Shown piece after piece: positions 26,028 to 60,204 of a stretch of DNA of 64,000 nucleotides. The position numbers and the translations under genes were made by a program. The notes under the pieces were generated by a model, which saw only the letters and a program-made list of their open reading frames with translations, did no database searches and was not told the origin of the DNA. Positions within the stretch are counted from its first letter, which is position 1; each line of letters opens with the position of its first letter. Source of the stretch: Nitrosopumilus sp. (lineage in GTDB: Archaea > Thermoproteota > Nitrososphaeria > Nitrososphaerales > Nitrosopumilaceae); NCBI GenBank assembly GCA_965238275.1, contig OZ250186.1, forward strand, positions 1,920,001-1,984,000. Direction: 5' to 3'.

Positions 26028-26163
26028 AGGTTTTCCAGATCTTTCAAGTCCAGTTAAGCATTTAGACTCTGTTCAAATAAGGTGATCTGACACATACTGG
26101 CTGGATGTTGGTTGGGATCCACAATTTTGAAGAGCCGGAATTTTGGAACGGAGCCTTGAGGAT

Positions 26164-28085
26164 CTAAAACGAATTTTTGGTGTGGTACCTATAGATAGTT
26201 GGCTTGCCCGCGGTGCTGTGGCCCGTATAGATACCTTGTTTACTACTCATGCTTGCCCCCACTCGATCTATTTTTCCCTGATCGAAATACTGATTCAGGG
26301 CCACTTGGATTTCCTTTTCTTCAAATTTGTTCAAGCGTCTGATGTTCGCAGCAATATCAGACGATGATTCGACACTCATGATCGTTGATTGTAATTCATA
26401 CAGTTCCTCTCGGGTATGACGAGTGTCTTGAAAATATCTGTCATCATAATCAAAGAAATGTGTGGTTGCCATGGTGGACAAAAAAAGAGCCAGATTGTAT
26501 TTAGGTTTTACGTCATTGCAACTTTGTTTCCTAATTATCGCCAGTCACACCCAACAGGTTCAGAATTAGGCCAGATCAGTTGAATTTGAACATCATATCA
26601 AACATCTTCAATAGAAAACCGTATTGATCAGAGAGGTGTGCAGGCAGTCAGGTAACAGCCATGACTGAAAACACATCCTCTCCAGACAAAACGGGCACGC
26701 ATGAGGCTAAAAAATCTTTCAAATCCAAAGAACGCCGGTTCCAGTACGATGACCGCAGGTACATAGACCGCGGCCAGTTGTGGACGCTCCAGATAAGCCC
26801 GGAGATCCTGACTCAGGGAGTCGAGAAGCTAAACTGCGGGAAGGTAGGCCGCCCGTACGTATTTTCAAACGCGTGCTTTGCAGCAGCATCCCTGTTCAAA
26901 AACGCCACCGGCATAAGGTACAGGCAGCTCCAGGGTCTGGCAGAGACGATAGTCGGCAAGGAAAACGCGCCCACGTACTCGGCGTTCCAGAAGAGGATGA
27001 CCAAGCTTGGCTGCACTGTTGCAGACAATGATGATGGTAGCGGCACGGCTTCTGCGTGGTTCTCAGACGGCGGCACCCGGGCCGAGATCAAGCTGTTTGC
27101 CTTCGACTCCACTGGACTCAAGCCCACAAACCGCGGCGACTGGATGACAGAAAAGTGGGGGACCAGGCGGGGCTTCATAAAGCTGCATGTCGGGGTGGAT
27201 GCCAAAACCAAAAAGATCTACGCCGTGGCCATAACCGACGACAAGTGCGGGGACTCTCCGCAGTTTGAGGAACTGGTGGGGCAGGCCCTTGCAAATGCAA
27301 AAAAATCACCAAACTCAGACACTTCTGCAGGCACCAAGGCGGCAGCCGACGGCGCGTACGACACCCAGAAGATCCGCAGGTACTGCGACGAGCAGGGAAT
27401 CGAGCCGCTGATTCCCGTCCGCATCGACTTTGCCGGAAAGGCGAACGGGTGCATGCCCCGCAAGGAGGCAGGATTCAGGCAGCTGGGGGACCTGGACTGC
27501 ATGGACAAGACGGCAGAACGCAAGTTTGCAGGCCTCACGCGCGAACAAAAGAGGGAATTCCAGAAGGCGTGGCGCAGGGAGTCAGGGTACAACGACCGGT
27601 GGTCAGTCGAGATTGTATTTTCCACGTTCAAGCGGGTGTTGGGCGAGTGCATAAGCGCGCGCAAGTGGGAGAACGTCAAGGCCGAGATATACGGAAAGGT
27701 GCAGCTGTACAACCAGATGATCGATACTGCAATCGACAACGGGTACGGCACGCCAAGGATCGTGCAAGCCTACAAGCCCGGCCCAAGGACTGCAAGGGAA
27801 GGGGGCAAGACGACGACGTAGGCAGAATTGCACAGACGAGTATCTGTGTCGAGCGTAATTAGGAAACAGAGTTGTCATTGCAAAAACATTGACTGTGGAT
27901 TGTATGACATCACCTACTGCCGTTTGTGAAAATCTGGATTCATTGAACTCAGCGGGAGATAGCAAACCTATTGCTGTCACGAATTCATCATGGTCATTGT
28001 AGAGTTTTAGCAAGCCACCTTGCGCATTAACAATTTTCATTTCAATGTTAATGTCAGCCCATGTGCCAGAATTTACAAAAGCCAA
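26164..28085 (-). pseudogene. low-GC hypothetical gene interrupted by IS5 copy B (28085..27874 + 26511..26164)
   Basis: Open frames on both sides of the IS; joining needs one extra base in the T-run at the insertion site. Confidence 0.45.
26520..27873 (+). mobile_element. IS5-family (IS903-like) insertion sequence, copy B
   Basis: Same TIRs as copy A; 8-bp TSD GTCATTGC at 26512-26519 and 27874-27881; transposase 26661..27821 identical in protein. Confidence 0.95.
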
Positions 28086-28113
28086 CGTAAACGGTTCATA
28101 ATACTCTGGAACG

Positions 28114-28315
28114 AGCTCTGGTAAGTTCTAGTGATCTGATCACCAAAATCTACCACCAAGGTGCAGATGTGACCAAGCTCGTTTTTGAACAGACCCGTGG
28201 AAAACACCACACTTTTGAACACCGTAACGAAAGGCGGCGGGATTGAATCTGGAGAAGATCCTAAAACACACTTTTGAACAGCGAATGGCAGAGATCATTA
28301 GAATTTAACAGAGCC
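28114..28315 (+). repeat. ~200-bp MITE-like unit (GGCTCTG...CAGAGCC family), unpaired copy
   Basis: Ends AGCTCTGGTAAG / AATTTAACAGAGCC, three TTTTGAACA motifs, homologous to 31744 and 32870 units. Confidence 0.9.
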
Positions 28316-28784
28316 TTGATTTGGGGCTCTGTTAAATTTTGGTGATCTCGAATGTTTACTGTTCAAAAGTGCGTTTTTGGTTCTTCTCCAGATTTGATTT
28401 CACTATATTTCATCATGGTGTTCAGGTGTGGTGCATTCCAAAAGTCTGTTCAAAAGTGAGATGAACGGCATCTGAACCTTGGTGTTAAATTTTGGTGATC
28501 AGATCACTAAAAATTCCAGAGCCCCCAAGGAGGCTCTGTTAAATTCTAGTGATCTCTGCTGTTCACTGTTGAAAAGTGTGTTTTTGGATCTTCTCGACGA
28601 AGGCAAATTCGATTTTGTATCGACTAGCAACCTGCACCATTTAGAAATACATGCCGGCAAGTTCCTCACGCACATGCACAATCAGCTCAAGGAAGAACTG
28701 CACCAGGAACACAACAAAGACACGGACGGTTAACGTTCTATTCAGCCATAGCGATATTCGATTCTTTTTGTTTGATAGTATAAT

Positions 28785-30381
28785 AGAAGATATGCGTAAT
28801 CCGCCCATTTCGCCAACTCGGTCATAAAAAACCGGAAAAATACGGCCTAAAACTACTCGTGTCTGGCATGTGGCAAGTCCGTTCACCCCAAAATCCAAAA
28901 TGACGTGCGCAGCCTTGCAGCACTTCATCGTGCCCTGAATTCTACTTGACCGGAGCTTGGGAGCAGGCCCTGTCCCAGTCTACTGACGTCTTCCACTGCC
29001 CCGGTGGTGGCGGGCCCTTTTCCATGCAGTCCCACAAAAGATTCAGGTTTACCAGCCCTGTGATCACGTTGAACTCCCTGTTGAACCCGGCTGCGTTGCC
29101 GTCGTACGGGTCGGTGAGGCGCGCGTAGCGCTTGAGCCTGCCTATCGTGTGCTCCACCAACACCCGGGTGGAGTTGATCCTGTGGTTGTGCTTTTTTTGC
29201 TCCGGCGTCAGCGGCGTGTCCCTGGTCTTCTTGTGCGGGATCTCCGGCGTGGTGCCGGGCAGGTGGTCTGCGATTCCCTGGTAGCCGCGGTCGACGAATG
29301 GGTGGCACCTGTCTGATTCTGGCAGGTCCGGATCGTGCATCGCCTTCTCCCACTTTCCAAACGGCATGGGGCGTTCCTTGAGCAGCGTGATGTCGCCGAC
29401 TGACCCGACGGTGCTTTTTGATATGCCGATCACCACCCCGTTCCGGTTGGTGTACACGTTGGTATTGTTGGTAAACTTTTTCTTCTTGCCGGAGTATTTC
29501 ATGCGCCGGACTGACTTTACGGACGGGCGCTGTATGGGGCAGTGCGTGCCGTCTATGAAGATCTCGCCCCCATCCGATCCGGGCACGATCTTCTTGAAAT
29601 CTTCCCTGGTCGGGGCAGCAGCTACCTCCTCGGATATGTTGTCTGCCGTCGGAAGTATTCCTGCCAGCATCGCGTCCATCACAGGAAAGTACCGGGACAC
29701 GGTGGACTGGTCTATCCCGAAGAACGCGGCAAGCGTTCCCTGCGTGATGTTTTCCTTTTTGTGCATCAGCGCCATGAGCAGCGCGTGCCTCAGGTGCAGC
29801 TTGCACCGGTTTCCGGGATCGGAGGCCCGGGATGCGTTATCGCAGAACAGCGGCATCTGGCCCGAATGCGTCAGAAACACCTTGGCCCGCTCCAGCATGT
29901 ACCGGAACTGTTCCCCGTCTGCCAGCGTGGCATGGCGGAGCTTGTCCCCGTCGCGTATTATGTCGTCTAGCACCTCTAGCAGATGCAGCGCGGGCCCCTT
30001 GCCGGGGTTCCAGCCATCGTCCCTGCTCTTCCACAGGCCGCGCTCAAGGCCCAGCTCCCTGTCTTTCTGCTCCAGCTTTTTGTCTTTCTGCTTTAGAATA
30101 TTTTTTAGGCTTTTGTTTTCCTGCTCCAGCTTTTTGTCTTTCTGCTCCAGCTTTTTGTCTTTCTGCTTTAGAATATTTTTTAGGCTTTTGTTTTCCTGCT
30201 CCAGCTTTTTGTCTTTCTGCTCCAGCTTTTTGTCTTTCTGCTTTAGAATATTTTTTAGTCTTTTGTTTTCCTGCTGCAACTTGTATATGATCTGATCAGG
30301 CGAGTCTGGCATTTGATGTGAGACACGATCGTGCCTGATCTAAATTTATCGATGTGGACAGGGGGATTACGCATATTCTCT
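28785..30381 (-). mobile_element. IS5-family element type C
   Basis: TIR AGA(AG/GA)ATATGCGTAATCC; 3-bp TSD AAT. Confidence 0.9.
28942..30312 (-). CDS. IS5-family DDE transposase with N-terminal heptad-repeat coiled coil
   Basis: FIDGTH, YSGKKK, VDRGYQG, RVLVEHTIGRLK; repeats LEQKDKK/LEQENKSLKNILKQKDKK. Confidence 0.9.
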   Translation of the reverse strand: MPDSPDQIIYKLQQENKRLKNILKQKDKKLEQKDKKLEQENKSLKNILKQKDKKLEQKDKKLEQENKSLKNILKQKDKKLEQKDRELGLERGLWKSRDDGWNPGKGPALHLLEVLDDIIRDGDKLRHATLADGEQFRYMLERAKVFLTHSGQMPLFCDNASRASDPGNRCKLHLRHALLMALMHKKENITQGTLAAFFGIDQSTVSRYFPVMDAMLAGILPTADNISEEVAAAPTREDFKKIVPGSDGGEIFIDGTHCPIQRPSVKSVRRMKYSGKKKKFTNNTNVYTNRNGVVIGISKSTVGSVGDITLLKERPMPFGKWEKAMHDPDLPESDRCHPFVDRGYQGIADHLPGTTPEIPHKKTRDTPLTPEQKKHNHRINSTRVLVEHTIGRLKRYARLTDPYDGNAAGFNREFNVITGLVNLNLLWDCMEKGPPPPGQWKTSVDWDRACSQAPVK

Positions 30382-30402
30382 AATGGGTGCTTGGAGCATG
30401 TT

Positions 30403-30624
30403 TCATTTGTGGCTGTCTCGCTGCTGCACTAAACTGACTATCTTCGTCGTATAGCCTAACCACTCGTCATAACACGCTTCTTCTTCTGATTTTGCGCGCA
30501 CCATGCCGCCTGCGTGGCCGGCAATTTCGCATTTTTCGCGGCGGTTGGTTGCGTTTCCGAGCCTCTTGTCTGCGTCCCTCACTTTTTCTTCAAGCGATGC
30601 AAGCATGGAATCATACGATGTCAT
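30403..30624 (-). CDS. small hypothetical helical protein
   Basis: ATG overlaps stop of the ABC gene (ATGA); MTSYDSML...QRDSHK. Confidence 0.45.
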   Translation of the reverse strand: MTSYDSMLASLEEKVRDADKRLGNATNRREKCEIAGHAGGMVRAKSEEEACYDEWLGYTTKIVSLVQQRDSHK

Positions 30625-31451
30625 CTTCCAGCCCCGTCGCGGACTTTCCGCGCCAACTCCAGCACTTTCTCGTCTTCCGGGTGGCGGGGGTGCGGCAGGT
30701 CGTTTTTGATATCGGATGAAATCTCCCCGGGCCGCTTGGTGAACCGTATTATCCTCGTGCCAAGCACAGCGGCCTCCACAGGATCGTGCGTCACGAATAT
30801 TATGGTCTTGTTCGTGCGCTGCCAGATCAGCTGCAACTCCATCATCAGGTCGGTCTTGGTGGAATGATCCAACGCGGAGAACGGCTCGTCCATGAGCAGC
30901 ATGTCCGGATCCATCGCCAGTGCCCTGGCGATCGACACGCGCTGCTTCATGCCCGTGGACAACTGCTTGACGTACGTGTCGGCAAACGTGCTCAGGCTCA
31001 TCATGTCGAGGAACCTGGCCGATATCTTGGCGCGCTTTTCTTTTGGGATCTTTGCCATCCTCAGCCCGAACTCCACGTTGTCGCGCACGTCCAGCCACGG
31101 GAACAGCGTGTCCTCCTGGAACACCATTATTCGCTCCGGCGACGGGTCACCTATCTGTTTGCCGTACGACAGTATGCGGCCGCCGTCCGGTTCCATGAAG
31201 CCGCTAATCATGCGCAGCAGCGTGGACTTGCCACACCCGCTGGGCCCGGTAAGGCAGACGAACTCCCCCTCGCGGATCTTCAGGCTCACGTCCTTTAGCG
31301 CCAGCAGATCCCCGGCGACATGGTATGTCTTGCAAACGCTTACGCTTTCAATGGCATGCATGATGAACATCATGGCATGGTTTGTTAAAAACGCTCGCTT
31401 GATCCGACCATATATTAAATTTATATGATGTTTCGATGATAAAACAAGCAT
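30621..31451 (-). CDS. ABC transporter ATP-binding protein (TauB/SsuB/NrtD type); start likely ~31360
   Basis: Walker A GPSGCGKST, LSTGMKQRV, LLMDEPFSALD, FVTHD; no permease/SBP nearby. Confidence 0.93.
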   Translation of the reverse strand: MLVLSSKHHINLIYGRIKRAFLTNHAMMFIMHAIESVSVCKTYHVAGDLLALKDVSLKIREGEFVCLTGPSGCGKSTLLRMISGFMEPDGGRILSYGKQIGDPSPERIMVFQEDTLFPWLDVRDNVEFGLRMAKIPKEKRAKISARFLDMMSLSTFADTYVKQLSTGMKQRVSIARALAMDPDMLLMDEPFSALDHSTKTDLMMELQLIWQRTNKTIIFVTHDPVEAAVLGTRIIRFTKRPGEISSDIKNDLPHPRHPEDEKVLELARKVRDGAGR

Positions 31452-32070
31452 GGGAATCGGTCAGTGCGAGTCATGCTCTGGAAAAACACATACTGCATTG
31501 CGTCTATGTGAAACGTGCGCAAATACACAGGACAGGTGTGCACAATGCGGGGAACACAGACCCAAAGTCGAAGGGCTTATGGTGTGTGAAAATTGCGACA
31601 ATCGCTAGCCCTAGATGAGACTTTTGTAAATTGGCCGTGTCATTTCTTGCGCCGGCGCCTGTCCCTCACGCCGCCTAACAAGTCGGCGTAGTCGCGATTC
31701 TGCCACACCGTGTATCATTTCTTTCCCCGTATAGGGGTAAGTCAGCTCTGGTAAATTCTAGTGATTTGATCACCGAAATCTACCACCAAGGCGCGTGTGT
31801 GGTCCAGCTCACTTTTGAACAGCATTATTGGGGGCATGACACTTTTGAACACCCTGACGACATGCGGTGGGGACGAATCTGGAGAAGATCCTAAAATGCA
31901 CTTTTGAACAGCGAACATTAGAGATCACTAGAATTTAACAGAGCCCCCAAGGACATGTTGTTGCAGTTGATCGTATTTGACTACAAAAGGTTGCCAGAAC
32001 CCCCACTGTCGGTGCTACCGTGAGTTACTTCTGGGAAGACTAGGGTTTGAAGAAAATTTAAAAGAAACAA

Positions 32071-32265
32071 ATGACAATTACATTCATGAGCAATAATGAT
32101 GATTTGGACAAAGCCAGACAAGTCGCGAATGACATGATAAACACGCTAGAAGAAGCAGACCAAGCCTTGGAGAATGCAGAAACCATTGAAGAAGCAAGAC
32201 AAATTTGCGGTGAAATAGAGTCCGATGCACGAAACCTACAGAATGAATTGCCAGACACTGCATAG
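32071..32265 (+). CDS. small acidic helical protein (E2 cargo)
   Basis: 64 aa, D/E-rich amphipathic helices, low GC, 2 bp before next ORF. Confidence 0.6.
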   Translation: MTITFMSNNDDLDKARQVANDMINTLEEADQALENAETIEEARQICGEIESDARNLQNELPDTA

Positions 32266-32267
32266 AA

Positions 32268-32855
32268 TTGGCCAACGAAAAAGACACTATAGAACAGATA
32301 CGTGCAAAAATACGCGAGTATGTTGGAAAATTAACGGAACTGCTGTCTGGCGGACCGCGCAATCCGGAAGAGATTGCGTATTTCATCAATCAGGTTGCAG
32401 AATTGCTAAACGTTGGCTGGGTTTTTCGGTGGTTTACCTTGAACTACAAACGGATGCTGGATGTGGCAGGCTTGTCGTTTTGCATCGCCGGCATCATGTT
32501 GTTGATGTTTGGCAATGATTTCACGGTTCCAAATGTTGTCTGGCTTTCAGTGCTTGTCTTCACTACGGCTGGCTGGGGCGTTTTCCTCCTGATGTTTCCC
32601 GGCCCGGCTTCCTTTGGAACGAAGCCAAAGACCAAAATCGACGCCGCGTGGTGCCTGGCGTTCATGGCGTGGATGGCGTTTGTTGCGCTTGGCGTTACGG
32701 CAGCAGCGATACAGACGGCAAACCGCGGATTCGCTGATCCTGCCGGTTATGTCGTGGTGGCTGCTGCTGTATTGGCCACTTACAGGGTGGCAGTGCCTAG
32801 AATGGTATTTGGGGCCAACGCCGCATCGATTTTACGCGGAAGATCCATCAAATAG
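32268..32855 (+). CDS. four-TM membrane protein with soluble N-terminus (E2 cargo)
   Basis: Four hydrophobic segments; operon-like with 32071. Confidence 0.65.
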   Translation: MANEKDTIEQIRAKIREYVGKLTELLSGGPRNPEEIAYFINQVAELLNVGWVFRWFTLNYKRMLDVAGLSFCIAGIMLLMFGNDFTVPNVVWLSVLVFTTAGWGVFLLMFPGPASFGTKPKTKIDAAWCLAFMAWMAFVALGVTAAAIQTANRGFADPAGYVVVAAAVLATYRVAVPRMVFGANAASILRGRSIK

Positions 32856-33230
32856 CTGGCACTACAGGCGGCTCTGGAACTTTTAGTGATCTGATCACCA
32901 AAATTTAACACCAAGGTTCAGATGCCGTTCATCTCACTTTTGAACAGACTTTTGGAATGCACCACACCTGAACACCATGATGAAATATAGTGAAATCAAA
33001 TCTGGAGAAGAACCAAAAACGCACTTTTGAACAGTAAACATTCGAGATCACCAAAATTTAACAGAGCCTGATTTGGGAAAAACACACAAAGAGTTAACAG
33101 AGTGCATCCACGCAAAGGTAACAAGCCCTGACGCCCATGTGCCTATGAGGATAATTCACAAATCCGCCTGCCGCCTGCATGTGGCACCAAATACACAAAA
33201 CGCCATGAAAAACCCCATGCAACAAATCCA

Positions 33231-34106
33231 TTACAGATCCCGAAACTTTACCATGTTGTAAAAGTACGACGCGTTTGTCTGGATGGATCCCCTGCGTGGA
33301 ATCTTCTGCAGTCCGACGTTCTTTGAGTCGAGTGCCGCCTGGGCGGCGCCCCCGGCAAAGCAGAGTGCCCACAAAAAGTCCCTCTCCCTGAGCATGGTAC
33401 AGCAGAATGCCGCACAAAAGATGTCGCCAATGCCGGTCGTGTCGTGAATGCGCTTGCTTGGGATGGTAATGGAGTATATCTTGTCCTCCACCAGAAGCGA
33501 GACTTCTGTCTTGTCTGTCAGCAGGACGTATTTGGCTCCCTTCTTCTGGAGCGCCCTCATCATGTCTGTGCCGGTTCCCCCGTCAACCATGCATCTGGCC
33601 TCGTCAGGATTGACCTTGATGGCGTCGACTCCGGACAGGTCAAGATCCGTACCCTCTAGTATTATGCGGTTTTGCGGATCCGTCCCCCTTAGAAACCCCT
33701 GTGGATCAACAAGAAGAAAGCTAGAGTCGCCCTTGATTCCCTCAAAGACATCGTCGGATATCTCGTGAAATATCGGGCTCACTATGTGCCCGTCTGCATC
33801 CGTCTTAGAGTACGGTATCGGCTCGCACCGGTTTTCAAGCACGAGCGTCCTGTCTGCCCCGTCAATGGCGATGGCAAACCTGGTGGTTCCCCTGTCAGAT
33901 TCGCATCCTGTGTGGCTTATCTTGTTCTCTGCGAGGTACTGGCTTGGAAAGTCTGCGCCGAACCTTGTATGCAAGTCTACATCAAACTTGAACTGCCTGG
34001 CAGTAATCCCGCAGTAGCATGCAGGGCCGCCAATCTGTTTATACCTTTCCCCGCCGATTGTGATCGTGTCTATTGCGCAGTGGGCAAAGATGGACAGCTT
34101 CACCAT
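33231..34106 (-). CDS. PfkB-family carbohydrate kinase
   Basis: GGPACY, VDPQG, KVNPDE, DTTGIGDIF. Confidence 0.92.
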   Translation of the reverse strand: MVKLSIFAHCAIDTITIGGERYKQIGGPACYCGITARQFKFDVDLHTRFGADFPSQYLAENKISHTGCESDRGTTRFAIAIDGADRTLVLENRCEPIPYSKTDADGHIVSPIFHEISDDVFEGIKGDSSFLLVDPQGFLRGTDPQNRIILEGTDLDLSGVDAIKVNPDEARCMVDGGTGTDMMRALQKKGAKYVLLTDKTEVSLLVEDKIYSITIPSKRIHDTTGIGDIFCAAFCCTMLRERDFLWALCFAGGAAQAALDSKNVGLQKIPRRGSIQTNASYFYNMVKFRDL

Positions 34107-58450: not shown

Positions 58451-58699
58451 GGTTCTCCTGCATCATCGGTTGGTGGCACAAATTCAGGATCTTCTCCAGA
58501 TTTACTTGCTGTTTTACGCACCGTTATGCCATTCCCCATTAAATCATAATTCCTCTAGGGAGAATCTGCCAGTTGTGATGGATAATCCCAGTCATTGCCA
58601 TGACATGCATTGATGGGACATCCATCACGCCAAGGCCAGTCTGGGCTACGTGTGTCGCTGCCGTTGCTACAGCTGCCGTTGCTACTGCTGCTGCTGCGA

Positions 58700-59846
58700 C
58701 TACGCTGCTGCTGCAGCAGCTGCTGCATTACTGATGAGGGTGATCTGCTTGTCCGTTCCAGATATGACGATCCCTGCGGCCTCTGCGGGTGTAATTTTGC
58801 CAATGCCGCCATGGGGGCGGAAAAAGTTGTGGTGGACGATCATCAGCCGCACAAGCGCGGGACTTTCTGTCCCGAACTCGCGGGCGGTCTTGATGCGATC
58901 CTTGAATTCACCGTTAAGCCTCTCGTGCTTGTTGTTATGACTGAAGCGGTTCTTCAGGTGAATCTCCCGGACGTGGATCAGCCTGAAGCCGTTGCGTCTC
59001 CAAAACGCCCTGCGGGCGGCAGGACAAAACGCCTGCAGGCCGTCTGTTACCAGCACCCACGGGGTGGTTCCGGCCAGATTCCTTGCGGCTGCAAACAGGG
59101 GGGCGGGTCTGTAGTTGAGTTTTGTCTCAGACACGTCATGGGACAGTATGAACCTGCTGGCGCCGTCCATGACGGCAAAAAGCCACCGCGCCTGCGCGCG
59201 AACCTTGAAATGTATCTCGTCACAGTGCCACTTGTAGCTCGTGCGCGGCTGCAGCCGCCTTGAATATTCATCCATCAGCGTCGAATAATGCGCAGTCCAC
59301 CTGTATATCGTGCTTGAATGCACGGTTGTTCCGTCCTGTGCCATCACTGCCTGCACCGCAGCGCAGGACAGCCCGTACGCTGCCTCCCTGAGTGCCCGGG
59401 ATATCGCCTCTGGGCCGGCATGGCGCTTCTTGAAGCCCGGCCGTCCGGAGAATGTCCGGCCGCACGGCTTACACCGGTACCGCCGGATCGGCCCGTACGC
59501 GTTGTGTCGGTGCCCGTTGCGTGCAAACACAGTCGACTTGCAATGGTGGCATGCAGTCTGAGGCATGCTAATGACAATTGTATTTTGGTTCCTGCACCGG
59601 TCCCACATCCGGCCAAGCAACACGTCCACTGCCCGCACGTGCTTGCACAGGCCGTCACAATTGACGTAATGCTGGCACGCGCATACAAACCCGGCAGAGC
59701 CAAGAATCACCAGATACCACAGTCCTGGAATAGACTGCGATGCCACATTCCATCGTCTGAGACTTGGTCATCCTCACCTGCTTTGGGTCGTCACTGATCA
59801 CCTGTCCCTGCCTTGCCGCCGTTTTGGCGCGTTTTGCCCTGTTCAT
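58700..59846 (-). CDS. IS6-family DDE transposase with SWIM and IS1-like Zn fingers; frameshift near 59750
   Basis: CAC...CKH, CHHC/CKPC, WHCDE, VTDG, NNKHERLNGEFK. Confidence 0.82.
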
Positions 59847-59917
59847 AAATAAACCAATTGGTATTATTACATAGATCTTTCTACCAGTCTTAAATAACAG
59901 GCAGCTAAAAAAAATTC

Positions 59918-60094
59918 ATGACCCAGTGGGCCAAAGACGCCAAGGAATTTACCGTTTCTGTGATCAAAAACGAGAAGCGTCTGACAAACTACAGCTACAT
60001 ACCAAAACCGATACTTGAAATGCTTGGCAATCCCGACAAACTAAAGTTTGTCATTTCCGGCGATGACATAATGGTGCGCAGACCAGACGAGTGA
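59918..60094 (+). CDS. 58-aa AbrB/SpoVT-like DNA-binding protein (below ORF-track cutoff)
   Basis: MTQWAKDAKEFTVSV...SYIPKPILEMLGNPDKLKFVISGDDIMV. Confidence 0.7.
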   Translation: MTQWAKDAKEFTVSVIKNEKRLTNYSYIPKPILEMLGNPDKLKFVISGDDIMVRRPDE

Positions 60095-60204
60095 ATCTGG
60101 AGAAGATCCTGTGCCCGTTTTGTCTGGATTGTGTCACCAACCGATGATGCAGGAGAACCGGCCATTACTAAGGCATAAATAACGTTTTAAACGAAACTTA
60201 ACAC

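What the first reader, a model, noticed from the sequence alone, without database searches (positions are those of the whole stretch)
28114..33076. Nested 'pack'-type transposons with ~200-bp inverted termini, 8-bp TSDs and end-adjacent targeting
Seen: E2 (28325-33068; 199-bp inverted ends, TSD TGATTTGG) is inserted 1 bp from the CAGAGCC end of unit 28114-28315. E3 (28532-31945; TSD CCCAAGGA) is inserted 0 bp from the inner CAGAGCC end of E2's left unit. Each full unit has its own short TIRs, an inner dyad (TAGTGATC-T-GATCACC), three CACTTTTGAACA-type boxes and an AATCTGGAGAAGA box. Neither encodes its own transposase; both carry cargo. Established: GGCTCTGTT ends and 8-bp TSDs resemble IS6 (IS6100/IS26); long TIRs with captured genes recall eukaryotic Pack-MULEs. 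Inference: a MITE-pair gene-capture system that accumulates cassettes next to previous ends, integron-like in outcome.
Basis: partly seen in the sequence, partly recalled or inferred. Interest (0 to 1): 0.82.

Follow-up and report, generated by a model that had tools for sequence, protein, structure and literature searches.

The report
Nested IS6-like MITE-bounded cargo transposons
Two gene-carrying mobile elements that lack a transposase of their own, bounded by short IS6-like repeat units, sit one inside the other in an archaeal genome, each inserted right beside the tip of an earlier copy; this is an archaeal variant of a known kind of compound transposon.

Summary
E2 (28325-33068) has 202-nt inverted ends, 200 of 202 identical, and the exact 8-bp duplication TGATTTGG. 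E3 (28532-31945), nested inside it, has CCCAAGGA.

Genome-wide, 5 exact and 1 one-mismatch 8-bp duplications occur among 108 end pairs (about 0.002 expected). A seventh element has extended ends. None of 31 single units (47, 68-71, 120 or 202 bp) has a duplication.

The insertions are discrete. A sister element sits in an IS whose 9 other copies are intact across the site. One metagenome contig joins 28316 to 33069, which is an E2-free allele.

The tips (GG, G at position 7), the 8-bp duplication and a shared 17-bp subterminal box point to IS6-like transposases acting in trans. The only IS6-like gene in this genome is a zinc-finger form scoring below NCBIfam's cut-off.

The two ends of each element are sisters (94-99% identical in 5 of 7), direct or inverted. 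With the bare single units, this fits IS26-style copy-in transposition.

Four of 9 duplicated insertions, in two genomes, abut a resident tip.

The Pack-MULE and integron comparisons are analogies only. Verdict: new archaeal, MITE-only variant of pseudo-compound transposons. Interest is moderate.

The parts
26065..26135 (+). 71-bp member of the same terminus family (GACTCTGTTCAAATAAGGTGATC ... GATCCACAATTTTGAAGAGCC); no TSD
26520..27874 (+). Unrelated IS5-family IS (1355 bp, 13 copies in the genome, ends AACTYTGTTTCCTAATTA), transposase ORF 26661-27821. It is not the parent of the units.
28114..28315 (+). U1, a 202-bp unit: palindromic inner end, three CACTTTTGAACA boxes, GAATCTGGAGAAGATCC box, outer tip ...TTTAACAGAGCC. 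It continues, after E2, into the extension at 33069-33105.
28317..28324 (.). Left copy of E2's target duplication TGATTTGG (1 bp after U1's CAGAGCC)
28325..33068 (.). E2, a 4744-bp non-autonomous compound element with inverted 202-bp sister ends
   Evidence: E2-free joint 28316>33069 in 1 contig of run X3
28325..28523 (-). U2L, left end unit of E2 (outer tip GGCTCTGTTAAATT at 28325, inner tip CCAGAGCC at 28516-28523)
28524..28531 (.). Left copy of E3's target duplication CCCAAGGA, 0 bp from U2L's inner tip
   Evidence: contigs covering 28483-28780 in runs X2 and X4 bridge this junction
28532..31945 (.). E3, a 3414-bp non-autonomous element nested in E2 (1814 bp without the secondary IS)
28532..28595 (-). 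E3 left end: 64-bp outer piece of a unit, ending in the GGATCTTCTC box (57/64 identical to the outer 64 bp of U3R)
28781..30382 (-). Secondary insertion: 1.6-kb IS5-family IS with its own TIRs (TAGAAGATATGCGTAATCC...) and transposase ORF 28942-30312, which has a tandem-repeat N-terminus
   Evidence: absent (joint 28780>30381) in 4 of 4 runs
30621..31451 (-). E3 cargo: solitary ABC-transporter ATPase gene. Homologous 1-kb segments occur without unit ends in two other genomes (84% and 79%).
31450..31608 (+). E3 cargo: 52-aa Cys-rich ORF (weak zinc-ribbon hits only)
31744..31945 (+). U3R, full 202-bp unit forming E3's right end
31946..31953 (.). Right copy of CCCAAGGA
32071..32855 (+). E2's own cargo: ORFs of 64 aa (32071-32265) and 195 aa (32268-32855, hydrophobic). 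No Pfam family reaches its cut-off.
32870..33068 (+). U2R, right end unit of E2 (200/202 identical to U2L in inverted orientation)
33069..33076 (.). Right copy of TGATTTGG
33077..33105 (+). Terminus-like 'extension' (window 33076-33105; its first base lies in the duplication) of the U1 unit (GGAAAAACACACAAAGAGTTAACAGAGTGC). The same piece flanks the outer tip of the unit at genome 982023. A more diverged form flanks 983173, and a related form flanks the unit at L038 10581.
58451..60111 (-). Copy, with a disrupted end, of the 1694-bp IS6-like IS ('fam25': TIR GGTTCTCCTGCATCATCGGTTGGTG..., the same GGATCTTCTCCAGATTC box, 9-bp TSDs in 3 intact copies). It is the only IS6-like transposase type in this genome and so the candidate helper.

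Best explanation
E2 and E3 are non-autonomous compound transposons. Their ends are members of a family of IS6-like miniature elements:
- a 47-bp palindromic 'mini', made of two 23-bp tips back to back;
- forms of 68-71, 120 and 202 bp;
- a ~240-bp form with an extra outer tip.

They carry unrelated host-type genes and no cognate transposase, so they must be moved in trans by an IS6-like DDE transposase.

The most likely route is the copy-in (replicative) pathway known for IS26. A single unit attacks nearby DNA. This either excises a circle holding one unit plus neighbouring genes, or inverts a segment between two inverted sister copies. Re-insertion of the circle, or of the whole composite through its two outer tips, gives unit-cargo-unit flanked by an 8-bp duplication. 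The same intramolecular events strip the duplications from single units.

New insertions land preferentially in the 8 bp that abut a resident tip, probably because transposase bound at that tip recruits the incoming complex. This is how E2 came to lie beside U1's internal tip, and E3 beside the inner tip of E2's left unit.

Shown: discrete insertions with TSDs, empty sites, sister ends, bare single units, recurrent insertion next to tips, and absence of a cognate transposase in cis.

Inferred: the identity of the helper, replicative chemistry, circles, and the recruitment mechanism.
For: 1. TSDs. There are 5 exact and 1 one-mismatch 8-bp TSDs among 108 end pairs, and the rest are random. A seventh element at genome 981986-983207 has a 9-bp direct repeat outside extended ends.

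2. Empty sites. The element mini-PAPS reductase-mini (genome 1986442-1987689) lies in an IS. The reconstructed empty site runs uninterrupted through 9 other copies in this genome, at up to 99.3% identity, and through 4 loci of another genome. There the flanks overlap by 8 bp. An E2-free joint 28316>33069 occurs in 1 contig of 1 of 4 runs.

3. IS6 likeness.
- The tips read GGCTCTG..., with G1, G2 and G7, and the TSD is 8 bp. These are the conserved features quoted for IS6/IS26 ends (passages of PMC6807381 and PMC7986276).
- The 17-bp box GGATCTTCTCCAGATTC is shared with both ends of the resident IS6-like IS.
- That IS's transposase matches NCBIfam's IS6 model best, over the model's full length (E 1.2e-23).
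- Homologues occur in 61 of 151 genomes of the genus.
- 5 of the 7 autonomous copies with definable ends make 8-bp TSDs, and some have GGTTCTGT... tips.

4. Sister ends. Paired ends are 200/202 (E2) and 198/202 (the 982 element) identical, inverted. They are 44/47 and 45/47 identical, direct, in two mini-bounded elements. Non-paired 202-bp units are 75-91% identical.

5. Bare single units. 0 of 31 single units has 5 or more of 8 flanking matches. None has an 8-mer repeat within 70 bp. The review states that IS26 loses its flanking repeats through intramolecular replicative transposition.

6. Tip targeting. E2 lies 1 bp and E3 0 bp from a resident tip. In another genome, an element with TSD CCAATCTG lies 0 bp from the tip of a 121-bp unit. 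Another there has a one-mismatch TSD overlapping a degenerate tip. That is 4 of 9 duplicated insertions.

7. No IS6-type gene lies inside E2 or E3.
Against: - No autonomous element with exactly these tips was found in this genome.
- The resident IS6-like IS has different tips (GGTTCTCCTG, no G7) and makes 9-bp TSDs in 3 of 3 intact copies.
- Its transposase scores below NCBIfam's IS6 cut-off (83.9 against 125 bits). It is only borderline for Pfam's DDE_Tnp_IS240: 24.6 bits when scanned as a protein and 27.1-27.2 against a cut-off of 27 in the genome search.
- IS6 pseudo-compound transposons have direct flanking copies, but E2 and the 982 element have inverted ones.
- IS26's known targeted reaction creates no new TSD, whereas these tip-adjacent insertions do.
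- No scrambled TSD partners were found among the 94 ends. The replicative history of single units is therefore not demonstrated.
- Every cargo is single-copy in the genome. No donor site and no second copy of any composite was seen.
- The E2-free allele rests on one short-read contig.
Confidence: 0.65

Rival explanations
1. This is a dedicated MITE-pair gene-capture system, Pack-MULE-like in form, that stacks cassettes next to previous ends, with an integron-like outcome.
For: - Seven cargo elements with unit ends and TSDs occur in one genome, with diverse cargo: PAPS reductase, a HEPN/nucleotidyltransferase pair, UbiA-like plus UbiE-like genes, an ABC ATPase and membrane proteins.
- Four of 9 duplicated insertions abut a resident tip.
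- A further tip-8 bp-tip junction lies at the genome's coordinate origin.
Against: - Only one stacked locus per genome was seen.
- Five of the 9 insertions lie away from family tips. One of them is 128 bp inside an unrelated IS.
- There is no integrase, no recombination site and no promoter logic.
- Cargo is single-copy and includes fragments and secondary ISs.
- The features are those expected of ordinary IS6-type compound elements and arrays. Nothing requires a dedicated system.
Confidence: 0.2
2. These are ordinary cut-and-paste MITEs and compound elements of a different DDE family that also makes 8-bp TSDs (for example IS1595, ISL3 or IS256-like). The resemblance to IS6 ends is coincidental. 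Single units lack TSDs because they are old.
For: - The cognate autonomous element was not identified in this genome.
- The resident IS6-like IS differs in its tips and in TSD length.
- Units are diverged from one another (75-91% identity), so many may be old.
Against: - No IS1595-type transposase exists in the genome (0 matches to PF12762).
- None of the multi-copy ISs whose ends I could define has such tips, apart from the IS6-like one.
- The GGATCTTCTCCAGATTC box is shared with the IS6-like IS.
- The flanks of the 31 single units show no residual TSD signal at all. The mode is 3 and the maximum 4 of 8 matches, as for random sequence. Yet the arms of several minis still match each other closely.
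Confidence: 0.15
3. The structure is an assembly artefact, or a chance juxtaposition of independently inserted units.
For: The locus is repeat-dense. Short-read contigs break in it, and no listed piece spans the whole stretch.
Against: - The exact TSDs are far beyond chance.
- Contigs from runs of two studies bridge the U2L/E3 junction (28483-28780) and E3's interior. A contig of run X4 carries 30 bp of U2R joined to the right flank (33039-33300).
- The same architecture, with TSDs, occurs in another genome.
Confidence: 0.02

Closest known systems
IS6/IS26-family pseudo-compound transposons, translocatable units and IS26 arrays
   Same: - 8-bp TSD and tips with GG and G7.
- Cargo bracketed by two near-identical copies of the end element.
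- Copies often lack TSDs.
- New units are added next to a resident copy.
(Passages of PMC7986276 and PMC6807381.)
   Different: - The end elements here are 47-240-bp transposase-less units, not ISs.
- The host is an archaeon. Records holding the same tips are titled Cenarchaeum and Nitrosopumilus MAGs.
- Two composites have inverted ends.
- Tip-adjacent insertions make their own 8-bp TSD, unlike IS26's conservative targeted reaction.
- The candidate helper is a ~400-aa zinc-finger form scoring below the IS6 model cut-off.
TIME-COMPs (composites bounded by two Tn3-derived MITEs) and mobile insertion cassettes
   Same: These are non-autonomous elements in which MITE-type ends bracket passenger genes and are moved in trans. 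(Abstract starts of PMC13367494 and 10.1101/2025.11.05.686661 in the search listing. The properties of mobile insertion cassettes are recalled.)
   Different: They belong to a different transposase family (Tn3, or IS231 and others) and occur in bacteria. As far as I recall, no preference for resident tips is reported for them.
Insertion of IS30- and IS3-family elements into their own terminal repeats
   Same: An element inserts at the inverted repeat of a resident copy. [quoted passage not shown]
   Different: These are other families with copy-out-paste-in chemistry and 2-4-bp spacers (recalled). Here the spacer equals the 8-bp duplication.
Pack-MULEs (plants)
   Same: Long terminal repeats bracket captured host gene pieces, with no transposase in cis.
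   Different: They are eukaryotic Mutator-superfamily elements with longer TSDs (recalled as 9-11 bp). No MULE feature was tested or seen here, so this is analogy only.

Membership tests
IS6/IS26-family derived element | 8-bp target-site duplication | tested here: met
   Exact 8-bp repeats flank E2, E3 and 3 other elements. One more has a single mismatch. The feature is quoted from PMC7986276.
IS6/IS26-family derived element | Terminal inverted repeats beginning GG with G at position 7 | tested here: met
   The tips read GGCTCTG(G/T)T.... The criterion comes from the abstract passage of PMC6807381. That paper also argues that archaeal and long zinc-finger forms may not belong in the family.
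IS6/IS26-family derived element | Mobilised by an IS6-family DDE transposase | tested here: inconclusive
   There is none in cis. The only candidate in the genome matches NF033587 end to end but scores 83.9-86.5 bits against a cut-off of 125. It has different tips and 9-bp TSDs. Relatives in the genus make 8-bp TSDs.
IS6 pseudo-compound transposon | Flanking copies in direct orientation | tested here: inconclusive
   Direct in the two mini-bounded elements (44/47, 45/47) and in the internal 710/713 pair (196/200). Inverted in E2 (200/202) and the 982 element (198/202).
IS6 pseudo-compound transposon | Cointegrate (copy-in) mechanism | not testable with these tools
   It is inferred only, from sister ends and TSD-less single units.
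MITE | Short, non-coding, terminal inverted repeats, multi-copy | tested here: met
   nhmmer gave 51 hits and the tip search gave 94 terminus-like sites. Unit sizes are 47, 68-71, 120 and 202 bp.
MITE | Each copy flanked by its own TSD | tested here: not met
   0 of 31 single units has 5 or more of 8 matching flanking bases. None has an 8-mer repeat within 70 bp.
Pack-MULE | Mutator-type TIRs and TSD, and a MULE transposase somewhere in the genome | not tested
   No MULE search was run. The TSD here is 8 bp and the tips are IS6-like. The Pack-MULE criteria are recalled.
Integron | Tyrosine-recombinase integrase with attI/attC cassette sites | tested here: not met
   None of the 8 ORFs scanned in 26661-34106 hit a tyrosine-recombinase integrase family; the only DDE hits belong to the two IS5-family ISs. 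Insertions carry TSDs and inverted tips, which are transposase signatures.

The most novel reading that the evidence does not exclude
In sponge-associated ammonia-oxidising archaea, a transposase-less family of IS6-like ends, as small as a 47-bp palindrome, runs a complete IS26-style gene-shuffling cycle in trans. It picks up neighbouring genes as unit-plus-cargo circles or inversions, and re-inserts them with a built-in preference for the 8 bp abutting a resident tip. Cargo therefore nests and stacks at pre-marked sites. This would be a self-targeting mode with a target duplication, which is not described for the IS6 family.
Probability: 0.3. Interest if true: 0.7.

Novelty: new variant of a known kind. 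Interest (0 to 1): 0.55.

Why it matters
IS26-type compound elements are known mainly as drivers of resistance-gene assembly in bacteria. According to the review read here, ISfinder lists only two IS6 MITEs.

This locus shows the same logic in an archaeon, built wholly from miniature ends. An 8-bp TSD marks insertion beside resident tips, and at least one insertion is polymorphic in natural populations.

It offers a compact, testable substrate (47-bp ends) for asking how IS6-like transposases choose targets and whether archaeal forms use copy-in chemistry. It may also help explain the heavy rearrangement of these IS-rich symbiont genomes.

Tried and rejected
1. The IS5-family IS just left of U1 (26520-27874) as parent. 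Rejected: its ends, defined from 13 copies, are unrelated.

2. A parent among multi-copy ISs. I defined the ends of the repeated ORF clusters with 3 or more copies. Only the IS6-like 'fam25' shares anything, namely the tip GGTTCT and the 17-bp box. Some clusters gave no clean ends.

3. A diverged IS6-like gene in the genome. tblastn and NF033587 found only fam25 copies and weak hits inside other ISs. PF12762 (IS1595) gave 0 matches. The sixth PF13610 hit (L006) is an IS3-type gene.

4. Scrambled TSD partners from recombination or replicative inversion. An all-against-all test of the flanks of 94 ends found none beyond the known pairs and a few one-mismatch chance hits.

5. An empty site for E2 in the nearest relative (G017). 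Synteny breaks here: its left flank maps to genome 1389936-1391400.

6. An E3-free joint was not listed among the contig joints. Contigs cannot show absence.

7. Two other joints (31945>33079 with 11 extra letters; 28285>33044) have sides of 26-29. I read the first as the paralogous unit at genome 982023 and the second as another paralogous unit copy, not as alleles.

8. Rfam: only 3 sub-threshold hits (ES173 twice, MIR847), taken as chance.

9. A tandem 'mini + IS' in G017 (L061) proved to be a 116-bp tandem duplication of flank plus IS end, not a targeted insertion.

10. The 8-mer AACAGTAA shared by the flanks of the 710/713 pair lies in box-like sequence, so I did not count it as a TSD.

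11. Two of 31 single units have 6/8 inverted flank matches. I did not pursue this.

12. Not used: structure prediction, fold search, complex prediction and the big protein searches. Supplementary files of the papers were not opened. ISfinder's MITE entries and TIR tables in supplements could bear on the comparison of tips.

Full report
**What is at the locus**

- U1 is a 202-bp unit at 28114-28315.
- One base after its CAGAGCC comes TGATTTGG (28317-28324).
- A second unit follows in the opposite orientation (28325-28523/6).
- Its mirror image lies at 32867-33068, followed again by TGATTTGG (33069-33076).
- The two arms are 202 nt and 99% complementary, 200/202.
- Directly after the inner CCAGAGCC tip of the left arm comes CCCAAGGA (28524-28531).
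- Then a 64-bp outer piece of a unit (28532-28595) and 3.1 kb of other DNA.
- Then a full unit (31744-31945), and CCCAAGGA again (31946-31953).

So E3 (3414 bp) is nested in E2 (4744 bp), and both have exact 8-bp target duplications.

**What the elements carry**

E3 holds:
- a solitary ABC-transporter ATPase gene (30621-31451, minus strand);
- a 52-aa Cys-rich ORF;
- a 1.6-kb IS5-family IS with its own inverted repeats and transposase.

That IS is a later arrival. Contigs of 4 of 4 public runs laid on the stretch join 28780 to 30381. E2's own cargo is two ORFs of 64 and 195 aa without family. None of the 8 ORFs scanned across 26661-34106 hit an IS6-type transposase or an integrase family.

The IS5-family IS immediately left of U1 (26520-27874) has 13 near-identical copies with unrelated ends. 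It is not the parent.

**The family in the whole genome**

The window lies in a 2.22-Mb single-contig genome that is very rich in ISs. It has 104 clusters of repeated ORFs of at least 180 aa, counting antisense frames.

A profile of the units finds 51 hits. A search for the 23-nt tips, allowing up to 6 substitutions, finds 94 terminus-like sites.

The family has several sizes:
- a 47-bp palindromic 'mini' that is just two tips back to back (GGCTCTGGTAAATTCTAGTGATC-T-GATCAC...CAGAGCC);
- forms of about 68-71 bp;
- a 120-bp form;
- the 202-bp unit.

Some 202-bp units carry a further 8 + 30 bp ending in another tip-like motif (GAGTTAACAGAGTGC). U1 is one of them. The sequence beyond E2 (33069-33105) matches the extensions at genome 981986-982022 and 983174-983207. 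E2 therefore sits inside a ~240-bp unit, 1 bp beyond an internal tip.

**Which things transposed**

I tested every left/right terminus pair 40-30000 bp apart, 108 pairs in all, for identical 8-bp flanks.
- Five are exact: genome 708592-713380, 1110135-1113604, E2, E3 and 1986442-1987689.
- One has a single mismatch: 672574-673524.
- The other 102 follow the random expectation.

A seventh element (the 982 pair) has a 9-bp direct repeat just outside its extended ends. All seven are cargo-carrying.

Their cargoes are a PAPS reductase, a HEPN/nucleotidyltransferase pair, UbiA-like and UbiE-like genes with a frameshifted TnpB, small unknown ORFs, and the window's genes. Each cargo is single-copy in the genome, apart from embedded ISs and short repeats.

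Single units are different. None of 31 has more than 4 of 8 matching flanking bases, and none has an 8-mer repeat within 70 bp. An all-against-all flank test found no displaced partners.

**Proof of insertion**

The mini-PAPS reductase-mini element sits in a copy of another IS.
- Joining its flanks with one copy of the duplication gives a sequence that runs uninterrupted through 9 other copies of that IS in this genome, at up to 99.3% identity. It also runs through 4 loci of a second genome.
- In that second genome the two flanks overlap by exactly 8 bp.

For E2, one contig of run X3 joins 28316 to 33069, with 61 letters on the U1 side and 9 letters fitting either side. This is the E2-free allele. 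A contig of run X4, from the same sample, carries the occupied right junction. Contigs of two studies bridge the junction between E2's left unit and E3 (28483-28780). These are short-read contigs, so the support is limited.

**Which transposase**

The genome has one IS6-like type, which I call 'fam25'.
- It is a 1694-bp IS with three intact copies and several partial copies.
- Its tips read GGTTCTCCTGCATCATCGGTTGGTG, and it makes 9-bp duplications in 3 of 3 intact copies.
- Both its ends contain the same GGATCTTCTCCAGATTC box as the units.
- Its 404-aa product has an N-terminal zinc-binding region.
- It matches NCBIfam's IS6 model over the model's full length, at E 1.2e-23, but below the cut-off (83.9 against 125 bits). 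Pfam gives only borderline rve and DDE_Tnp_IS240 hits.
- No other IS6-like gene and no IS1595-type gene was found.

Homologues occur in 61 of 151 genomes of the genus.
- Ends and duplications could be defined in 7 of 30 loci. Of these, 5 make 8-bp and 2 make 9-bp duplications.
- Several 2.3-2.7-kb members have tips such as GGTTCTGTAACGTT, GATTCTGTAAAGTT or GGTTCTGTGTAATC, some of them with a GATCTTCT box about 30 bp in.
- One such element lies in the second genome that also holds the units. By my count, 13 of the first 20 tip bases match the units.

The units' tips have G1, G2 and G7 and an 8-bp duplication. These are the conserved IS6/IS26 end features quoted in the passages I read. The cognate helper is not pinned down. 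Harmer and Hall also argue that archaeal and long zinc-finger forms may deserve their own family.

**How it most likely works**

The two ends of a composite are sisters.
- They are 200/202 and 198/202 identical, inverted, in E2 and the 982 element.
- They are 44/47 and 45/47 identical, direct, in two mini-bounded elements.
- They are 196/200 identical, direct, in an internal pair.
- Non-paired 202-bp units are only 75-91% alike.

Three things are what the copy-in pathway of IS26 predicts: sister ends, duplications around composites, and bare single units.
- Intramolecular attack either deletes a circle holding one unit plus neighbouring DNA, or inverts a segment between inverted sister copies.
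- Re-insertion gives unit-cargo-unit with a flanking duplication.
- Intramolecular events remove the duplications of single copies.

The review says this last point explicitly for IS26, and also describes insertion next to a resident copy and IS26 arrays. This mechanism is inference. No circle, cointegrate or donor site was seen.

**Insertion beside tips**

E3 lies 0 bp and E2 1 bp from a resident tip. In the second genome:
- a 1292-bp element with the duplication CCAATCTG lies 0 bp from the tip of a complete 121-bp unit;
- a 3459-bp element with a one-mismatch duplication overlaps the degenerate tip of an 81-bp unit.

That is 4 of 9 duplicated insertions. A random site lies within 1 bp of one of 94 tips with probability about 2 in 10,000 (my arithmetic).

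A further tip-8 bp-tip junction, without a duplication partner, lies at the genome's coordinate origin. Two truncations fall at the GGATCTTCT box.

I take this as real self-targeting, probably through transposase bound at resident tips. It resembles the insertion of IS30 and IS3-family elements into their own repeats, which the review mentions. It differs from IS26's conservative targeted reaction in creating a duplication.

**Distribution and context**

The 202-bp unit was found in 3 of 31 genomes searched, the own genome included. Exact tip matches in the species collection fall in 9 stretches. Their records are titled Cenarchaeum sp. and Nitrosopumilus sp. MAGs, plus one contig titled Candidatus Poribacteria.

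Two of those genomes have 26 and 7 tip sites, against 0 for the reversed control pattern.

In the nearest relative, synteny breaks exactly at this locus.

The ATPase segment of E3 occurs at 84% and 79% identity in two other genomes without unit ends. This fits cargo of host origin.

**Comparison with known systems and verdict**

The closest known systems are:
- IS6/IS26 pseudo-compound transposons and arrays;
- composites bounded by two MITEs (TIME-COMPs; abstract starts seen);
- mobile insertion cassettes (recalled).

Pack-MULEs and integrons are analogies of outcome only.

Four things are new here: an archaeal host; ends that are miniature, down to 47 bp; both direct and inverted sister ends; and tip-adjacent insertion with a duplication.

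I did not find this described. Two literature searches on Cenarchaeum or sponge with MITE or IS terms, and on IS6, MITE, archaea and cointegrate, returned nothing on it. That is a limited search of open-access text.

I rate it a new variant of a known kind, of moderate interest.

Noticed in passing
window 28781-30382: The IS5-family IS inside E3 is missing (joint 28780>30381, 4 letters fitting either side) in contigs of 4 of 4 public runs. It is therefore a recent or strain-specific insertion.
   Followed up: partly
window 30051-30282: The N-terminus of that IS's transposase is encoded by tandem 21/54/75-bp repeats, giving KDKKLEQ-type repeats. Other copies in the genome differ in length and identity (88-100%).
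   Followed up: no
whole genome (G000): The IS load is extreme: 104 clusters of repeated ORFs of at least 180 aa (antisense frames included), the largest with 26, 21 and 17 members. Many of these ISs are 91-97% identical to copies in a second genome, G073.
   Followed up: partly
window 33151 onward, against L029 (G017): There is a synteny breakpoint at the locus. In the nearest relative, the DNA left of the pfkB-like kinase gene matches genome 1389936-1391400, not the window.
   Followed up: partly
genome 2216659-2216668 plus 1-37, and 46-166: The assembly's coordinate origin cuts through a 47-bp mini. It is followed by 8 bp (CTCAAGTC) and a 121-bp unit, a tip-8 bp-tip junction with no TSD partner.
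   Followed up: partly
window 31954-32041: The ~88 bp of E2 next to E3's right duplication have copies (79-83% identity) at four other places. One lies directly beside the outer tip of the single unit at genome 1064633. The nature of this repeat is unknown.
   Followed up: no
genome 1064432-1064633 and 1110135-1110181: Two of 31 single units have flanks that are inverted repeats of each other at 6 of 8 positions (GCCAGCAT/ATGCTGTT and AGTCCGGC/GCCGGCAT). Several tips are preceded by CAT. This may be chance.
   Followed up: no
window 58451-60111: The window's copy of the IS6-like IS has about 16 extra bases between its GGATCTTCTCCAGATTC box and its terminal repeat at one end.
   Followed up: no
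L061 1105-1260 (G017): A 116-bp tandem duplication comprises 20 bp of flank plus the first ~95 bp of an IS6-like IS. As a result, the 9-bp duplication CTCATGGCC appears three times.
   Followed up: yes
L094 1501-2517 (G073) against window 30384-31395: Homology of E3's ATPase segment to the other genome stops within 3 bp of the point where the secondary IS is inserted in the window. This may be coincidence or a module boundary.
   Followed up: no
window 28353-28414, 32979-33040, 28250-28390: Sub-threshold Rfam hits (ES173 at 30.4 bits against a gathering score of 90; MIR847 at 29.3 against 184) fall on the units. I take them as chance matches to palindromic sequence.
   Followed up: yes
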